Below are positions 13,219-18,104 of a stretch of 37,497 nt of DNA, in pieces. Source of the stretch: a virus (lineage: Duplodnaviria > Heunggongvirae > Uroviricota > Caudoviricetes); the IMG/VR virus record IMGVR_UViG_3300008107_000053, one strand, 5' to 3'. Positions within the stretch are counted from its first letter, which is position 1. Each line of letters begins with the position of its first letter. The position numbers were made by a program, and so were the translations under genes. The notes beneath the pieces were generated by a model. It searched no databases. It was not told the DNA's origin and saw only the letters and a program-made list of their open reading frames with translations.

Positions 13219-13810
13219 AACTAATTGGTTTTACAGTTATGTTGATGTTCCAAATTTGGACAGCATAACAACAGAACTTATTAAGTTGTCTGAAGATGTT
13301 GTGCATTTGAAGCGCAGAACTAATCCATTTTATGTTAATGTTTCTGCAGAAGATGGTATAGATGCCTGCCCTACATTAAAATGCTATTTACAAGAATGTG
13401 GTATTCTTACAAAATTGAATAGGTTTCTGTTTTCTTCGAATCAAGTAACATCATCTGTTATCCATGTAGATTCATATGATCCAGCATACACTCAGTGTTC
13501 TTTAAATTTTGCTTTAAAGCACTGTGAAAATTCTTACACTGCATTTTACAAAACAAATTTGACTACATTGATAGATTCAGGTAAAATGGGACTACATGCT
13601 CCTAGTAATTTTGCTTGGACTTATGCGGGCGCTGCTGAAGAAATTGCAAGAGTAGAAGTTATACGACCTATGGTTGTAAATACTACAATATTGCATAGAG
13701 GGATAACAGACAATCCATTTAGAAGCATCTGCGGCTTGAGGTTTATCCCTGAGCTAGATGAAGAAAATTTAAAACAAATGGGAATCAAAAACCCATTTAC
13801 TCAAGAATGA
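13202..13810 (+). CDS. 2OG-Fe(II)-like oxygenase
   Basis: IHVD (HxD), SLNF, PMVVNTTILH...R..LRF. Confidence 0.65.
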   Translation: MYNPIRTNWFYSYVDVPNLDSITTELIKLSEDVVHLKRRTNPFYVNVSAEDGIDACPTLKCYLQECGILTKLNRFLFSSNQVTSSVIHVDSYDPAYTQCSLNFALKHCENSYTAFYKTNLTTLIDSGKMGLHAPSNFAWTYAGAAEEIARVEVIRPMVVNTTILHRGITDNPFRSICGLRFIPELDEENLKQMGIKNPFTQE

Positions 13811-14460
13811 AAACCTTTATACACCATGATCTACCCAAACTTGAACGCACCACTGCACCAGATGGCACACGAGTTTATAAAACACCGTCGGGTAGAGCCT
13901 ATCCATCGGTCACCACCGTTACGTCCCTACATTCAGCAAAAGGAATTGCAGAGTGGCGTCGCAGGGTTGGTAATGAAGAAGCAAACAGGGTATCCGCAAG
14001 GGCATCTGCCAGAGGAACAAGAGTTCACACCCTCTGTGAACATTACCTGCTAGGTAACAATCCTGAGCCAGATATCTTTGACGCAGAGATCTTCAATTCA
14101 ATGAAACTCTGGTTGGATGACATCGATAACATCCACTGCTTAGAAACACCGCTGTACTCTGACTTCTTAGAAGTTGCAGGAACAGTAGATTGCATTGCTG
14201 AGTTTCAAGGTAAGCTATCAGTCATAGATTTCAAGACTGCAAATAAACCCAAAGATCGGGAAGATATATATAATTACTTCATGCAAACAGCTGCATACGC
14301 AGTTGCGTTTGAAGAACGCACAGGCATTCCAATTGGTAGGCTAGTAATTATCATGGGTGTGGAGAACGATGATCCACGACTGTTTATTGAGAAGCGTGAC
14401 AACTGGATCGGTGGATTCAGAAAATTGCGTTTAGACTACAAGAATGCCCATAATATTTGA
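13807..14460 (+). CDS. PD-(D/E)XK exonuclease (T4-like phage family)
   Basis: YPSVTTV, RGTRVH, E..L...VAGTVDC, VIDFKT, YFMQTAAY. Confidence 0.9.
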   Translation: MKTFIHHDLPKLERTTAPDGTRVYKTPSGRAYPSVTTVTSLHSAKGIAEWRRRVGNEEANRVSARASARGTRVHTLCEHYLLGNNPEPDIFDAEIFNSMKLWLDDIDNIHCLETPLYSDFLEVAGTVDCIAEFQGKLSVIDFKTANKPKDREDIYNYFMQTAAYAVAFEERTGIPIGRLVIIMGVENDDPRLFIEKRDNWIGGFRKLRLDYKNAHNI

Positions 14461-14485
14461 CTTGCAAATAATTAAGGGGTATAAT
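14457..14485 (+). promoter_or_regulatory. sigma70-type promoter, probably driving the tmRNA precursor
   Basis: TTGACT-17 nt-TATAAT; the ATG at 14487 is too close to be on this transcript. Confidence 0.7.
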
Positions 14486-14486
14486 C

Positions 14487-14696
14487 ATGTTATACATTGA
14501 TTACCATTTTGATCTTTCGGATGGATACATTCTGTTTGACGAAGAATTGCATCTTGCATCACAGGAAAAGAAACCTGACCAAGTTTGGGGAACTTTACCT
14601 AATGGATGGAAAGATGGCGATATGTTTAAATTACAGATCTCTGCAAACGGTAGAGTAATGCTTGTAAAAGCAACTCAACCAAACGGAGGTTTATAA
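14487..14696 (+). CDS. small hypothetical protein
   Basis: 69-aa ORF filling the gap between the exonuclease and the tmRNA. Confidence 0.65.
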   Translation: MLYIDYHFDLSDGYILFDEELHLASQEKKPDQVWGTLPNGWKDGDMFKLQISANGRVMLVKATQPNGGL

Positions 14697-15098
14697 GGAA
14701 TTGTTGTAATCCCTTCAAAGCGAAGGACTTCTGGACGTGGGTTCGACTCCCACCACCTCCACCAATAGGACTTTTATGGAACTTATCAAGTATAGAGATT
14801 CGGGGATGAATACTTATACCTACTTTTGGATAGATAGCAAAAAGCGTTGCATCTCTCCTTACTTTGATAGTTCAACAGATGCCACTGAATGGCTAAAGAG
14901 TTTTACTGATGGGGGTGCCTTGGTTTCGACAGAGGTAGATAGTAGAGACGGCAACACGGGAATGTGAAACCCGTAGGATTGGGGAAACTCGGTCGAAGAA
15001 GCAAAACAAAGTAAATGCAAACGACTCTGTCTACGCATTAGCAGCCTAAACGCTGCTTAGGGTTTCGGTTGGTTTCCTCGTAACAGAATAACCAACCA
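14697..15098 (+). ncRNA. ssrA: circularly permuted (two-piece) tmRNA: acceptor piece about 14697-14764, coding piece 14911 to about 15098
   Basis: T-arm GTGGG-TTCGACT-CCCAC and CACCTCC-A-CCA precede GGGGGTG...TTCGAC; the acceptor stem has a G3:U pair; tag ANDSVYALAA* at 15017-15049; AGAGGT/ACTTCT helix joins the two pieces. Confidence 0.92.
14776..14967 (+). CDS. 63-aa ORF starting in the tmRNA intervening segment
   Basis: AGGA RBS 5 nt before the ATG; reads through into the tmRNA 5' end. Confidence 0.55.
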   Translation: MELIKYRDSGMNTYTYFWIDSKKRCISPYFDSSTDATEWLKSFTDGGALVSTEVDSRDGNTGM

Positions 15099-15114
15099 CT
15101 AATAAGGAAGCTAG

Positions 15115-15612
15115 ATGTTAGGTATTGTTTTAGGTAATGGTCCAAGCAAAGCTGCTTACAATCGTTCTGGTGATATCATTATCGGTTGTAACTTTCCAGG
15201 TGACCAGTTTAGTGTTGATGCTACTGTAGTATGTGATGAAGAGATTGTTTATATTTTAAAGAACAATCCAGAAGCCATAACATGCCCAATGATTATTAGC
15301 ACTAAAGTTTTTTCGAAGATGAAAGAATACAAAATTGAAGACAAGTATACCATCTTAGCTGTTTTCAAACCACAGGATTGGTTTAATGCTGCTCACTATG
15401 CAGCAAATTATCTTCTAAGTATCGGTTGTACTCAGATAGATATATGGGGATGTGATTCTATTTTTGTAGATACTACAGAATCAACCACAGACGTTCTTGT
15501 ACCTAAAGAAGACAAGAATGATATGAGGTTTATCCGAAATTGGAGAAAAGTTTGGAATGAAATTTTTGACGATAATCCAATGACACCGTTCAATGTAATG
15601 AAATACCAATAG
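15115..15612 (+). CDS. GNGPS-motif protein (GT29/CstII/MAF_flag10-like nucleotide-sugar-utilising fold)
   Basis: VLGNGPS, GCN, IDIWGCD motifs. Confidence 0.6.
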   Translation: MLGIVLGNGPSKAAYNRSGDIIIGCNFPGDQFSVDATVVCDEEIVYILKNNPEAITCPMIISTKVFSKMKEYKIEDKYTILAVFKPQDWFNAAHYAANYLLSIGCTQIDIWGCDSIFVDTTESTTDVLVPKEDKNDMRFIRNWRKVWNEIFDDNPMTPFNVMKYQ

Positions 15613-15621
15613 GAGATTAAC

Positions 15622-15810
15622 ATGAAATTTTTAGTAGCAACAATGGCTTTAGTTTTCGCTAGCACTACCTTTGCAGCTGAACCTGCCAAAGCACCTGCAA
15701 AGAAACCTGTAGCAGAAAAGAAGTGCGATCCGCTGAAACAAAAAGACTGTAAAAAAGCAGAACCTTCTGCTAATAAGCCAGTTCCTAAAAAGAAGGCAGA
15801 GCCTAAATAA
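15622..15810 (+). CDS. small secreted Lys/Pro/Ala-rich protein
   Basis: AGGAG RBS; Sec signal MKFLVATMALVFASTTFA-A; PAK repeats. Confidence 0.8.
   Translation: MKFLVATMALVFASTTFAAEPAKAPAKKPVAEKKCDPLKQKDCKKAEPSANKPVPKKKAEPK
15803..15809 (+). promoter_or_regulatory. putative late promoter (CTAAATA)
   Basis: Late consensus variant ahead of a structured 150-nt leader. Confidence 0.45.
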
Positions 15811-15964
15811 TAGGAGGCTTGGTCAGAGCCTATAATCTGACCAGTCACCACCCTGCATCCCTTGATACTCTGTAAAGTATCATATCTTAATTTTAATACC
15901 CCAGACTATTGGCAAGTCTATCTGAAGCAGAAGTGGGAATAACTCACTTCAAAAGGAGAGATCT

Positions 15965-16534
15965 ATGCAAAAAGAAAAGAAGTATCTATTATTTCAAATT
16001 TTAGTTGCAGTGTTTAGTATTTGCGTTATGCTTTACACAGCTAAAACTATTGGTTCCTTAGAACCAAGATTGCTTAATGTTGATTACTCAGAATTAACAC
16101 CATCTGCCAAGAAGCAAATTGACTGTCTTGCAGATAACATATATTATGAATCGGCGTATGAACCACAATCGGGTCAAGTAGCTGTTGCTCTGGTAACGTT
16201 AAATAGAGTTAACCATCCTGCATTTCCAAAAGACGTGTGTGGAGTTGTCAAGCAGAAAACAAATTCTACTTGTCAATTTTCTTGGTTCTGTATGAACGTA
16301 CCACGTAAAAACAGTGCAGTATACGAAGAAGTTAGAAAAGTAGCTCTTCATGTCTACTCAAACTATGAAAACATAGTAGACATAACAAAGGGCTCTTTGT
16401 ACTACCATGCAGATTATGTAAACCCAGGATGGAAATTACATAAGACTGTTGTTATTGGACGCCATATATTTTATAAAGGTAATGAACATGATGCAAAAAC
16501 TCAATCTTCAACTAAAGGAAGAACAGAATTCTAA
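15965..16534 (+). CDS. SleB-like cell wall hydrolase (Hydrolase_2) with N-terminal anchor
   Basis: CLADNIYYES, VALVTLNRV, FPKDVCGVV, CQFSW, YYHADYVNPGW, IGRHIFY. Confidence 0.92.
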   Translation: MQKEKKYLLFQILVAVFSICVMLYTAKTIGSLEPRLLNVDYSELTPSAKKQIDCLADNIYYESAYEPQSGQVAVALVTLNRVNHPAFPKDVCGVVKQKTNSTCQFSWFCMNVPRKNSAVYEEVRKVALHVYSNYENIVDITKGSLYYHADYVNPGWKLHKTVVIGRHIFYKGNEHDAKTQSSTKGRTEF

Positions 16535-17048
16535 ACATTCTTTCTTCTTGTTAATGGAAGATATTACGTTAGAATCTTGTAAGAGTGCGGTTGAGTGGAT
16601 CTTCGAATGTAATTTTGGAGAACAACGACCTGATATGTTAAATTTGGTTATCTGCTCTCCAGGTGGAGATCTTAATGCTGCGTTTGCATTAGTTGATACT
16701 ATGCGTGGCTCTGCCATTCCTATTAGAACTATTGGTCTTGGACAAATTGCTTCTGCTGGATTGATGATTTTCATCTCTGGCGATAAGGGTCAACGAATTC
16801 TAACACCAAATACTTCTATTCTTTCTCATCAATACTCATGGGGTGCTTTTGGTAAGGAACATGAATTGTTTGCGCAGATTAAAGAATTTGACTTAACCAC
16901 TAAACGAATGATTTCTCACTACAAGAAATGTACGGGATTGACGGATGCTAAGATTAGAGAAGTTCTATTGCCTCCTCAAGATGTTTGGCTTAGTGCTATT
17001 GAAGCAAAGAAACTAGGATTATGCGATGATGTTAAAGAACTATCTTAA
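16488..17048 (+). CDS. clpP: ClpP-like serine protease
   Basis: CSPGG, IASAG (Ser), LSHQ (His), QDVWLSAIEA (Asp); start moved to the ATG behind the AAAGGT RBS. Confidence 0.9.
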   Translation: MMQKLNLQLKEEQNSKHSFFLLMEDITLESCKSAVEWIFECNFGEQRPDMLNLVICSPGGDLNAAFALVDTMRGSAIPIRTIGLGQIASAGLMIFISGDKGQRILTPNTSILSHQYSWGAFGKEHELFAQIKEFDLTTKRMISHYKKCTGLTDAKIREVLLPPQDVWLSAIEAKKLGLCDDVKELS

Positions 17049-17208
17049 GCATTCTGGAATATGGATTGGGCTTGTTGTTAACCCATTCCATTGGGAAGTT
17101 CGTTTTACTACGATACAACCCGATGACCTGAACCCAAAAGCACATGGGTTCTTTTTGTCTCTTGGTCCATTTTGGACAAGAGTTGTTATTGATGATGGAG
17201 AATGGTAA
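17026..17208 (+). CDS. small hypothetical protein
   Basis: Coupled 60-aa ORF, NPFHW motif. Confidence 0.65.
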   Translation: MMLKNYLKHSGIWIGLVVNPFHWEVRFTTIQPDDLNPKAHGFFLSLGPFWTRVVIDDGEW

Positions 17209-17423
17209 TTATGGAAAAAGATATGATCGCGTTTTGGCTTTGTTTGTGTTTGACAGTGATGACGTTAATTGGTTGCACTGCCTATTACAATTACAATCAG
17301 ACGCAAGCAATTAGGGCTAATATTGAGGTTGCTCTCGGGAAAGGAATCGATCCTCTTTCTGTTCGCTGCGCATACTCGAACAGCCAAGACACTGTTTGCA
17401 TAGCCTACGCTGCAAGAAAGTAA
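17202..17423 (+). CDS. small membrane protein
   Basis: GGAG RBS; one TM helix; GIDPLSVRCAY...C motif. Confidence 0.75.
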   Translation: MVIMEKDMIAFWLCLCLTVMTLIGCTAYYNYNQTQAIRANIEVALGKGIDPLSVRCAYSNSQDTVCIAYAARK

Positions 17424-17434
17424 TCCTTACGTAT

Positions 17435-17454
17435 ACCCCTACTGATGTAGGGGT
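17435..17454 (+). terminator. 8-bp hairpin, possible terminator or insulator ahead of the next promoter
   Basis: ACCCCTAC-TGAT-GTAGGGGT; only a weak U-tract follows. Confidence 0.5.
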
Positions 17455-17468
17455 CATTAATTTAGATG

Positions 17469-17497
17469 TTGACTTTTATTCCCTTTTAGGGTATAAT
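17469..17497 (+). promoter_or_regulatory. sigma70-type promoter, likely producing a leaderless mRNA
   Basis: TTGACT-17 nt-TATAAT; ATG at 17504. Confidence 0.8.
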
Positions 17498-17503
17498 AAG
17501 TTT

Positions 17504-17836
17504 ATGATGATCTTTACTACTCCAGGTAAGTCCAAGAAACGTAAACAAACAGCAAAGCAGCGTGAGTTGCAAGCTGAGTGGGATCGTATGCTTGATAAGT
17601 ATAAACCCAAGAAAGTTGTAGCACCTGCAACTGAGTATAAACAACCAAAACCTTACATCCGTGAAACAGCTAAGATTCCAAGTCTTAATTCTGTAGGCGG
17701 TAGTACTGCTCTAAAACCTTCTCCTGTTTACACTGGAGATAAACTCATGGGTATCGGGACTATGCACAAGTCCAATTCTGTACCAATTTTTTCAAACCAA
17801 GAAGCTAAGGAAATCGCTACAATGCGAAGAGGATAA
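17504..17836 (+). CDS. conserved T4-like basic hypothetical protein
   Basis: YTGDKLMGIGTMHKSNSVPIF motif; start moved downstream of the promoter. Confidence 0.8.
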   Translation: MMIFTTPGKSKKRKQTAKQRELQAEWDRMLDKYKPKKVVAPATEYKQPKPYIRETAKIPSLNSVGGSTALKPSPVYTGDKLMGIGTMHKSNSVPIFSNQEAKEIATMRRG

Positions 17837-17837
17837 A

Positions 17838-18104
17838 ATGCACACATCTTATAATGAACTTGTTAATGCATCGACTTATGGTGACACCAATAAACTTGTT
17901 AGTTTATATCAGTCACTTGTTGTTGATAAAATGCGGCTTGATAAATTCTTCAGTATGTTTTTGGATAAGTTTTCCGACAAGATGGATCCAAAGGTCACTA
18001 ACACCAACATCTGGAAACTTTACAATAAGAAAACCAAAGAGTATGCTGACTTGGAACAAGTCATTAAGGCAGCTGAGTATTACCTAAAGAAGAATCATGT
18101 TTAA
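17838..18104 (+). CDS. hypothetical protein
   Basis: GAGG RBS; overlaps the gp33 start. Confidence 0.75.
   Translation: MHTSYNELVNASTYGDTNKLVSLYQSLVVDKMRLDKFFSMFLDKFSDKMDPKVTNTNIWKLYNKKTKEYADLEQVIKAAEYYLKKNHV

What the first reader, a model, noticed from the sequence alone, without database searches (positions are those of the whole stretch)
14697..15098. Phage-encoded circularly permuted (two-piece) tmRNA
Seen: the 3' tRNA half (T-arm, CACCTCC-A-CCA ending at 14764) lies upstream of the 5' half (GGGGGTG at 14911). The acceptor stem pairs 7/7 with the Ala identity G3:U wobble. AGAGGT (14931) pairs with ACTTCT. The tag is GCA-AAC-GAC...GCA-GCC-TAA (ANDSVYALAA) with the stop in a hairpin loop. 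GAAACTC (14984) and GGGTTTC (15060) can enclose the tag frame, and GGTTGGTT/AACCAACC closes the 3' end. Established: permuted ssrA is known from Alphaproteobacteria, marine picocyanobacteria and a betaproteobacterial lineage (Dechloromonas). Phage tmRNAs are uncommon, and standard annotators can miss permuted ones. Whether this is a host capture or an independent permutation is open.
Basis: partly seen in the sequence, partly recalled or inferred. Interest (0 to 1): 0.8.

Follow-up and report, generated by a model that had tools for sequence, protein, structure and literature searches.

The report
Two-piece phage tmRNA with spacer gene
An uncultured T4-like water phage carries a real, intact two-piece ribosome-rescue RNA (tmRNA) gene, which is a known kind of phage gene, but the stretch cut out between its two pieces holds a genuine small protein gene, a layout I did not find in the papers I could search.

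Summary
ARAGORN calls a permuted tmRNA with tag ANDSVYALAA. Rfam matches tmRNA_permuted (127 bits, cut-off 47) and beta_tmRNA (111 bits, cut-off 84). In 25 related phage genes the helices carry compensatory changes, and G3:U70 is invariant.

This is not a new kind. Phage two-piece tmRNAs were published for OM43 phage Melnitz and about 50 aquatic phages (PMC9004378). Melnitz carries its gene in the same genomic slot, after the PD-(D/E)XK nuclease. At least 64 IMG/VR contigs hold relatives. Complete 167-174 kb relatives encode no SmpB, so host factors are needed. Identity to bacterial beta-type genes is only 62-63%, which argues against a recent host capture.

The 146-nt intervening segment holds a 63-codon gene with a ribosome-binding site (14776-14967).
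- Its family has 203 clusters.
- dN/dS is about 0.3.
- It has a weak YegP-like fold.
- It reads 57 nt into the mature tmRNA.

The closest relative (89-92.5% identical flanks) has an unrelated 52-aa gene in the same segment, and another relative has a 146-aa SNase gene. The segment therefore acts as a swappable gene slot.

This scan has reported spacer genes before on other DNA. I found no paper describing them.

The parts
14457..14485 (+). Sigma-70-type promoter-like site TTGACT-17-TATAAT. It is the likely start of the transcript that carries the small upstream ORF and the tmRNA precursor.
   Evidence: 11 of 12 consensus matches. It is a consensus match only; function is inferred. Many relatives have a TATAAT 6-10 nt before the tmRNA 5' extension instead.
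14487..14696 (+). Small upstream ORF of 69 aa. Its stop codon lies 5 nt before the tmRNA 5' extension.
   Evidence: Homologues sit in the same position in L001 (56%) and L077 (48%). No Pfam or PHROG match.
14700..14764 (+). Acceptor piece (3' tRNA-like half). It comprises the 5' extension 14701-14733, which pairs with the coding piece, the T-arm 14737-14753, the acceptor 3' strand 14754-14760, A14761 and an encoded CCA at 14762-14764.
   Evidence: Compensatory changes in the 5'-extension helix, the T-arm and the acceptor stem. The exact 5' end is not determined.
14765..14910 (+). Intervening segment of 146 nt, removed on maturation. It is closed by a 10-bp stem (14766-14775 with 14896-14905) and ends in CUGAU before G1.
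   Evidence: Fold. The stem is kept in L121 through a C-G to G-C exchange (sequences). In viral relatives the segment is 4-454 nt long; in Rhodocyclaceae it is 3-4 nt.
14776..14967 (+). Protein gene inside the intervening segment: 63 codons, AGGA ribosome-binding site at 14767-14770, conserved core at aa 1-42. Codons 46-63 and the TGA stop (14965-14967) overlap the mature tmRNA 5' region.
   Evidence: 92% identical protein P0001. Thirteen further viral loci carry homologues. 203 clusters in the profile search. dN/dS about 0.3 with saturated dS. AF2 model pLDDT 79, strand-strand-helix; the top PDB fold hits are all UPF0339/YegP but weak. No Pfam match.
14911..15098 (+). Coding piece (5' tRNA-like half plus mRNA-like part): acceptor 5' strand 14911-14917, GGTTTCGAC, helix strands 14930-14936 and 14951-14956, and the PK1 hairpin 14957-14973.
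   Evidence: covariation. The exact 3' end is not determined.
15017..15049 (+). Tag reading frame GCA...TAA, encoding ANDSVYALAA. The stop codon lies in the loop of the 15040-15057 hairpin.
   Evidence: The same or a similar tag (AND....ALAA) occurs in relatives L021, L036, L076 and others.
15067..15097 (+). 3' hairpin GGTTGGTT / AACCAACC with loop TCCTCGTAACAGAAT, a hallmark of the beta type.
   Evidence: model positions about 275-305. Every pair shows compensatory changes among the 25 relatives.
13807..14460 (+). Context: PD-(D/E)XK exonuclease gene, the conserved upstream neighbour of the tmRNA slot.
   Evidence: Pfam PF12705 and phrog_298. 37-89% identical homologues lie upstream of the tmRNA in about 30 viral loci. 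Melnitz has the same arrangement.
15965..17048 (+). Context: cell-wall hydrolase gene (15965-16534) and ClpP-like serine protease gene (16449-17048; the start is uncertain). Both are conserved downstream of the tmRNA in this clade.
   Evidence: Pfam Hydrolase_2 at 80 bits and CLP_protease at 97 bits. Ser, His and Asp align with the ClpP triad. Synteny holds in about 13-15 loci.

Best explanation
The locus is a working two-piece tmRNA (ssrA) gene of the beta structural type, inherited within a clade of aquatic T4-like myoviruses. It is probably transcribed with its neighbours from the sigma-70-type promoter at 14457-14485. Host RNase P would cut before G14911, and 3' processing would expose the encoded CCA at 14764. 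This releases an acceptor piece of about 65 nt and a coding piece of about 190 nt. The two stay together through the 7-bp acceptor stem and the long helix formed by the 5' extension. Host alanyl-tRNA synthetase would charge the RNA through G3:U70, and host SmpB would deliver it to stalled ribosomes. Translation would resume at GCA 15017 and add ANDSVYALAA, a ClpXP-type degron. The likely benefit is that ribosome rescue and clearance of truncated proteins continue once host RNA synthesis is shut off. The neighbouring ClpP-like protease may add degradation capacity. The 146-nt spacer that is cut out is also an expression slot. It carries a real 63-codon gene for a small YegP-like protein. Related phages exchange the content of this slot as a unit. 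Shown here: gene identity, structural conservation, selection on the spacer gene, and slot exchange. Inferred: processing, charging, tagging, timing, and any role of ClpP.
For: Identity: ARAGORN; Rfam RF04321 at 127 bits and RF01850 at 111 bits, both full length. Constraint: compensatory changes in the 5'-extension helix, T-arm, acceptor stem, PK1 hairpin and 3' hairpin, with G3:U70 in 25 of 25 relatives. Tags keep AND...ALAA while the middle codons vary. Phage origin: T4-like structural and replication genes; a conserved nuclease-tmRNA-hydrolase-ClpP module; three complete relatives of 167-174 kb, each with one permuted tmRNA and no SmpB. Same slot in Melnitz. Spacer gene: SD plus ATG; protein family; dN/dS about 0.3. 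L134/L135 are 89-92.5% identical in the flanks but hold an unrelated 52-aa ORF in the spacer. L101 holds a Pfam SNase gene there. 9 of 42 spacers of 50 nt or more hold an SD-led ORF, against 2.2 +/- 1.5 in shuffles. Published precedent for function: two-piece tmRNA works in Caulobacter (Keiler 2000, as cited in PMC9004378).
Against: There are no expression or processing data for this phage or any relative. The host is unknown. The ribosome-binding site of the spacer gene lies inside the spacer's closing stem, which could limit translation. After RNase P cleavage the spacer gene would lack its stop codon, so how the protein is made is unclear. The link to ClpP is synteny within one clade only: Melnitz does not have it next to its tmRNA, and BUCT-ZZ01 has it about 41 kb away from its tmRNA.
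Confidence: 0.85

Rival explanations
1. The RNA is a modulator or decoy rather than a rescue factor. The phage tmRNA would compete with the host tmRNA for SmpB and ribosomes, redirecting tagging (for example to mark host proteins for recycling) or damping host quality control.
For: Phages with beta-type two-piece genes infect hosts expected, from established knowledge, to have one-piece tmRNA (Pseudomonas phage SM1, Synechococcus elongatus phage BUCT-ZZ01). The phage copy is therefore not simply a spare of the host gene. PMC9004378 proposes selective tagging to recycle amino acids. A phage tmRNA without a tag frame (DS6A) inhibits host tmRNA (PMC11915505).
Against: The tag frame is intact and conserved and carries a canonical ...YALAA degron. 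Every element needed for normal trans-translation is present. No known mechanism would aim tmRNA at particular proteins.
Confidence: 0.08
2. The gene is a recent capture from the current host, or an attachment-site remnant, with no long phage history.
For: tmRNA genes are frequent prophage integration sites. The T-arm and acceptor sequence is identical to that of Rhodocyclaceae genes.
Against: The mature parts are only 62-63% identical to the sampled bacterial beta-type genes but 91-96% identical to phage relatives. The gene keeps a fixed position in the phage module across contigs whose neighbouring proteins have diverged to 37-89% identity, and in Melnitz. The phage copies form their own group in the tree (short alignment, weak). 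Both halves and the tag are complete, unlike an attachment-site fragment. Phage G+C is 38% against 61-63% in Rhodocyclaceae loci.
Confidence: 0.04
3. The ORF in the intervening segment is a chance or decaying reading frame. The spacer would be only a structured linker.
For: Most relatives have a 60-90 nt non-coding hairpin spacer. The ribosome-binding site is paired in the predicted fold. The frame runs past the RNase P site.
Against: The conserved core is shared with free-standing genes in many phage contigs and with 203 clusters in the protein library. dN 0.3-0.5 with saturated dS. The 63-aa length is the same in three diverged copies that sit in spacers. The AF2 model is confident over residues 1-45.
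Confidence: 0.05

Closest known systems
Two-piece ssrA of Methylophilales (OM43) phage Melnitz and the pelagimyophages (Buchholz et al. 2022, PMC9004378)
   Same: A permuted tmRNA in an aquatic T4-like myovirus (Kyanoviridae-like). It occupies the same slot: PhoH ... PD-(D/E)XK nuclease, small ORFs, tmRNA ... gp32. Its spacer is also long (about 143 nt) and also seems to start with an SD-led ORF (read by eye, not tested).
   Different: The Melnitz gene scores as alpha type (RF01849, 106.7 bits) and is followed by a glutamine riboswitch. The window gene is beta type, has no riboswitch, and is followed by hydrolase and ClpP-like genes. The gp6 proteins are only about 38% identical. The paper does not mention genes inside the spacer, or ClpP.
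Betaproteobacterial two-piece tmRNA (Rfam RF01850; Rhodocyclales such as Dechloromonas and Accumulibacter; Sharkady and Williams 2004, as cited in PMC9004378)
   Same: The same permutation point, the same 5'-extension helix, T-arm and acceptor sequence, a 10-residue AND...ALAA tag, and a 3' hairpin with a CCUNGUNAC..AA loop. The full-length model match is above the cut-off.
   Different: The bacterial spacer is 3-4 nt (30 nt in one low-G+C genome) against 146 nt here. The bacterial genes end in a terminator hairpin that the phage gene lacks. Identity is only 62-63%, and bacterial genes score 169-296 bits against 111 here.
Caulobacter two-piece tmRNA (Keiler, Shapiro and Williams 2000, as cited in PMC9004378)
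   Same: The experimentally shown precedent: a permuted gene gives one precursor, which is cut into two base-paired pieces that tag proteins.
   Different: It is alpha type and cellular, with a short non-coding spacer. Nothing has been tested experimentally for the phage gene.
ORF-bearing intervening sequences in other stable RNA genes: the Coxiella 23S rRNA IVS with its S23p ORF (PMC4990558), and group I introns with homing endonuclease genes in tmRNA T-loops (PMC11915505)
   Same: A protein-coding frame sits in a stretch that is removed from a stable RNA precursor.
   Different: Here no splicing or religation is needed, because the two RNA pieces stay separate. The cargo is varied small phage genes rather than one selfish element. 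PMC11915505 reports only a tRNA-Ala gene and a repeat element inside permuted-gene spacers.

Membership tests
Permuted (two-piece) tmRNA, Rfam RF04321 | The order of the tRNA-like halves is reversed: T-arm, acceptor 3' strand and CCA lie upstream of the acceptor 5' strand. | tested here: met
   CCA ends at 14764 and G1 is at 14911. ARAGORN calls it 'tmRNA*'.
Permuted (two-piece) tmRNA, Rfam RF04321 | The covariance-model score exceeds the curated cut-off over the full model. | tested here: met
   127 bits against 47, model positions 1-213.
Permuted (two-piece) tmRNA, Rfam RF04321 | Alanine identity: G3:U70 and discriminator A. | tested here: met
   G14913:T14758 and A14761. G:U is kept in 25 of 25 relatives.
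Permuted (two-piece) tmRNA, Rfam RF04321 | A tag reading frame starts at a GCA resume codon and ends in a hydrophobic ...LAA degron plus a stop codon. | tested here: met
   15017-15049, ANDSVYALAA*. Conserved in relatives.
Permuted (two-piece) tmRNA, Rfam RF04321 | The precursor is cut into two pieces that accumulate and tag proteins, with SmpB. | not testable with these tools
   No expression data exist. No SmpB gene was found in three complete relatives, so host SmpB would be required.
Beta-type two-piece tmRNA, Rfam RF01850 | The score exceeds the cut-off and beats the alpha and cyano models of the same clan. | tested here: met
   111 bits against 84, and kept as the best of clan CL00001. 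Relatives score 94-157 bits.
Beta-type two-piece tmRNA, Rfam RF01850 | The 5' extension of the acceptor piece pairs with the coding piece, and the 3' hairpin has the conserved loop. | tested here: met
   TGTTGT 14702-14707 pairs with GCAACA 14951-14956. 3' hairpin at 15067-15097. Both show compensatory changes.
Beta-type two-piece tmRNA, Rfam RF01850 | A terminal terminator hairpin and a very short spacer, as in the bacterial members. | tested here: not met
   The last model hairpin is deleted in the window. The spacer is 146 nt against 3-4 nt. These are features of the cellular genes, probably not of the RNA fold.
Alpha-type two-piece tmRNA, Rfam RF01849 | Best-scoring model of the clan. | tested here: not met
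   Beaten by the beta model in the window. It does win for Melnitz.
YegP / UPF0339 (Pfam PF07411, DUF1508), considered for the spacer protein | A match to the family HMM. | tested here: not met
   No Pfam match for the window protein or for any of 10 family members, even at E 10. No PDB sequence match.
YegP / UPF0339 (Pfam PF07411, DUF1508), considered for the spacer protein | The strand-strand-helix fold of the domain. | tested here: inconclusive
   The AF2 model is strand-strand-helix. The top Foldseek hits 3bid, 6q2z, 2k7i and 2k49 are all UPF0339 proteins, but E is 0.05-1.4 and TM about 0.4. The Atlas structure hit to YegP has TM 0.61-0.65.
ClpP serine protease (Pfam PF00574), neighbouring gene | An HMM match and the Ser-His-Asp triad. 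| tested here: met
   97 bits against 20.2. Ser in GQIASAG, His in LSHQ and Asp in PQDVW align with the triad positions of ClpP 2f6i.

The most novel reading that the evidence does not exclude
The cut-out spacer of phage two-piece tmRNA genes is a dedicated, exchangeable expression slot for small phage genes. Here the cargo is a YegP-like 63-aa protein. Cargo output would be coupled to tmRNA maturation in two ways. First, the ribosome-binding site lies in the spacer's closing stem. Second, in this phage the frame crosses the RNase P site, so a processed spacer would be a non-stop message, which is itself a substrate of the tmRNA it came from.
Probability: 0.3. Interest if true: 0.7.

Novelty: new variant of a known kind. 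Interest (0 to 1): 0.5.

Why it matters
The tmRNA alone adds one more member to a published class. It mainly shows that annotation misses such genes: the records of Synechococcus phage BUCT-ZZ01 and Pseudomonas phage SM1 carry unannotated ones. The spacer gene is the useful part. It shows that a stable-RNA precursor in a phage can double as a messenger, and that the discarded segment of a permuted RNA gene is a tolerated insertion site where unrelated genes come and go between near-identical phages. That gives a simple, testable system for studying how RNA processing and translation compete on one transcript. It also explains why phage spacers are 15-100 times longer than the 3-4 nt bacterial ones. 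In addition, the same genomic slot holds an alpha-type gene in Melnitz and a beta-type gene here. This bears on the published argument that the tmRNA type records a phage's host history.

Tried and rejected
- Megablast of 14 kb of the window against cultured phages found nothing. The distant search found only the Pseudomonas phage acceptor pieces.
- No whole genome is held for the window.
- Host identification failed. 
- The midpoint-rooted FastTree of 94 tmRNAs groups this phage clade apart from the bacterial genes. It is too short and poorly supported to give a direction of transfer, so I make no donor claim.
An alternative perfect partner, GAAACCC 14966-14972, exists but was not tested.
- I did not resolve the PK1 pseudoknot pairing.
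- Function of the spacer protein: Pfam, PHROGs, NCBIfam-style and PDB sequence searches gave nothing.
- An NCBIfam call failed because of a wrong coordinate and was not repeated.
- Two scripts returned nothing because my patterns were too strict; I then corrected them.
- Sharkady and Williams 2004 is not held, so statements about it rest on citations in PMC9004378.

Full report
**Observation.**
- A T-arm (GTGGG / TTCGACT / CCCAC, 14737-14753) is followed by CACCTCC-A-CCA, ending at 14764.
- GGGGGTG lies 146 nt downstream, at 14911-14917. It pairs 7/7 with the 3' strand and gives G3:U70.
- The tag frame GCA...TAA (15017-15049) encodes ANDSVYALAA. Its stop codon lies in a hairpin loop.
- A closing hairpin, GGTTGGTT/AACCAACC, lies at 15067-15097.

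ARAGORN calls a permuted tmRNA with this tag. Rfam matches tmRNA_permuted at 127 bits (cut-off 47) and beta_tmRNA at 111 bits (cut-off 84), both over the full model, with E-values of 1e-24 and 4e-33. No other Rfam family passes its cut-off in the window, so there is no glutamine riboswitch here.

**Is it a phage gene?** The window encodes T4-type baseplate hub and wedge proteins, gp32, PhoH and a tail tube cap. Its gp6 is about 38% identical to those of pelagimyophages, OM43 phage Melnitz and cyanomyoviruses. G+C is 33-42%. No cultured phage is close at the DNA level, and no whole genome is held.

A pattern taken from the T-arm and acceptor found at least 120 IMG/VR contigs. ARAGORN of these permuted, and three carry the identical tag. 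In about 30 of them the PD-(D/E)XK exonuclease gene lies upstream of the tmRNA. In about 25 a cell-wall hydrolase gene lies downstream, and in about 13-15 a ClpP-like gene does, as in the window.

The nearest relatives, L134 and L135, are 89-92.5% identical over window 13807-17965. Three relatives are complete genomes of 167-174 kb by CheckV, two of them with terminal repeats. Each has one permuted tmRNA and no SmpB. Contamination by host DNA is excluded.

**Is it under constraint?** I aligned the two mature parts of 25 relatives and counted pairs.
- The helix between the 5' extension and the coding piece, the T-arm, the PK1 hairpin and the 3' hairpin all show repeated changes on both sides of a pair.
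- The acceptor stem switches from C:G to U:A in two sequences.
- G3:U70 never varies.
- Tags keep AND...ALAA while the middle residues vary.

This is a maintained gene, not a relic.

**Which kind, and where from?** The beta model wins the clan competition in the window and in all relatives tested. Melnitz scores as alpha type and carries the published glutamine riboswitch. Yet the Melnitz gene lies in the same slot, after PhoH, the PDDEXK nuclease and small ORFs, and before gp32.

In bacterial genomes, the same T-arm and acceptor occurs in permuted genes of Rhodocyclaceae, with the tag ANDERFALAA. This is the known beta lineage. Only 4 of 151 sampled genomes of that order pass the cut-off.

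The window's mature parts are 62-63% identical to these bacterial genes and 91-96% identical to those of phage relatives. The phage clade groups apart from the bacterial genes in a weak tree. The gene therefore shares the beta-type permutation and is not an independent event. It has a long history inside phages and is not a recent capture. The direction of the original transfer is open, and the host is unknown.

**Already known.** Buchholz et al. 2022 (PMC9004378) described the Melnitz two-piece ssrA. They counted 53 two-piece genes among 18,146 phage genomes, 50 of them aquatic, and found permuted tmRNA sequences in 17 of 47 Melnitz-like contigs. The 2025 tmRNA database paper lists 79 phage sequences (PMC11915505). 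The finding as written is therefore a new member of a known kind.

The 146-nt intervening segment is not empty. Right after the CCA come AGGA (14767-14770) and ATG (14776). They open a 63-codon frame that ends at TGA 14965-14967, which is 57 nt inside the mature coding piece.

The frame is a real gene:
- A 92% identical, 63-aa protein exists in public data.
- Thirteen further viral loci encode homologues with an invariant core (L3, Y6 R7 D8, G10 M11, T15 Y16 F17, P28, F30, A36, W39).
- A profile search finds 203 clusters at E up to 1e-3, 86 of them at 1e-10 or better.
- dN is 0.3-0.5 while dS is saturated, and the ratio is about 0.3 where it can be computed.

In L121 and L122 the homologue again sits inside a tmRNA spacer and has the same 63-aa length. 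In L123-L133 my pattern search found no tmRNA next to it, so it appears free-standing there. In L077 it lies just upstream of the tmRNA.

The AF2 model is confident over residues 1-45 (pLDDT about 90) and has a strand-strand-helix topology. The best PDB fold matches are all UPF0339/YegP proteins, but they are weak. The Atlas structure search agrees, while the Pfam HMM does not match. I call it YegP-like in fold only. Its function is unknown.

**The spacer as a slot.**
- L134 and L135 are nearly identical in their flanks but hold an unrelated 52-aa frame in the spacer. It ends at the TGA of the conserved ...TGAT before G1.
- Other relatives hold small hydrophobic frames with ribosome-binding sites (L044, L099, L143, L085).
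- L101 holds a 146-aa staphylococcal-nuclease homologue (Pfam, 44.6 bits) in a 454-nt spacer.
- Of 42 distinct spacers of 50 nt or more, 9 hold an SD-led frame that fills at least 75% of the spacer. Shuffles give 2.2 +/- 1.5, with a maximum of 7 in 200.
- The remaining spacers are 60-90 nt hairpins.
- Bacterial Rhodocyclaceae spacers are 3-4 nt.

The window spacer folds with a 10-bp closing stem (14766-14775 with 14896-14905). L121 keeps this stem through a C-G to G-C exchange. The stem contains the ribosome-binding site.

**Literature and earlier notes.** I found no paper that describes protein genes in this spacer. PMC11915505 mentions only a tRNA-Ala gene and a repeat element in such spacers. 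Earlier notes of this scan report the same layout on other DNA. I saw the ORFs before reading those notes, and I tested the claim here independently.

**Mechanism.** The steps described under the best explanation follow from established knowledge of two-piece tmRNA (Caulobacter) and from the elements present here: a precursor, an RNase P cut before G1, exposure of the encoded CCA, two base-paired pieces, charging by host AlaRS, delivery by host SmpB, and tagging with a ClpXP-type degron. None of these steps has been shown for this phage.

The ClpP-like gene 1.4 kb downstream has the Ser-His-Asp triad. It could add proteolytic capacity, but the linkage is limited to this clade.

How the spacer protein is made is unclear. 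The full frame exists only in the unprocessed precursor, because after the RNase P cut the spacer RNA would lack a stop codon.

Noticed in passing
window 13807-17836; loci L001, L021, L034, L036, L037, L044, L062, L076, L077, L093, L099: A conserved module runs PD-(D/E)XK exonuclease, small ORFs, permuted tmRNA, a variable ORF, SleB-type cell-wall hydrolase, ClpP-like protease, and an ORF of phrog_27048. The ClpP-like protein keeps the Ser-His-Asp triad and is 69-86% identical in most of the relatives that carry it (56% in L089). A protease gene next to a degron-encoding RNA suggests a functional link, but this is untested.
   Followed up: partly
L235 (Synechococcus phage BUCT-ZZ01, ON615601.1, 116952-117248, minus strand): This cultured freshwater cyanophage carries a beta-type permuted tmRNA (RF04321 112 bits, RF01850 94.5 bits). 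The record does not annotate it, and a hypothetical CDS (UTS52133.1) is drawn over its acceptor piece.
   Followed up: partly
L239 (Pseudomonas phage SM1, NC_041877.1, about 54020-54460); also UF_RH6, PA_L9, PaMx31, FBPa45: Pseudomonas aeruginosa siphoviruses of 93-95 kb match the window's acceptor piece at about 80%. SM1, the only one checked, carries an unannotated beta-type permuted tmRNA (RF01850 111 bits, tag ANDTSFDVRLAA) next to a tRNA-Arg. From general knowledge, its host has a one-piece tmRNA.
   Followed up: partly
L237 / L238 (Methylophilales phage Melnitz, MZ577097.1, 45984-46436): The published Melnitz ssrA lies in the same genomic slot as the window gene but is alpha type. Its spacer of about 143 nt also starts with GGAG plus ATG, opening a frame of about 55 codons that runs into the tmRNA. 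I read this by eye from the Rfam alignment. It is not annotated in the record and I did not test it.
   Followed up: no
L101:1581-2021 (minus strand): A 454-nt tmRNA spacer is filled by a 146-aa staphylococcal-nuclease homologue (Pfam PF00565, 44.6 bits). It has its own ribosome-binding site and ends 1 nt before G1.
   Followed up: yes
Its PK1 region (CGGTAGGCGAAGACCGTAAATC) closely resembles that of the phage family. It could be a link between the phage and bacterial lineages. The organism's name is not available.
   Followed up: no
P0092 (1133 aa): One large protein contains about 10 tandem copies of the small YRD-G-M-TYTYFW domain found in the spacer protein.
   Followed up: no
window 14457-14487: The near-consensus promoter-like site TTGACT-17-TATAAT ends 1 nt before the ATG of the 69-aa ORF. 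A transcript from it would start inside or just at that ORF. Either the ORF is read from an upstream transcript, or the promoter mainly serves the tmRNA precursor.
   Followed up: no
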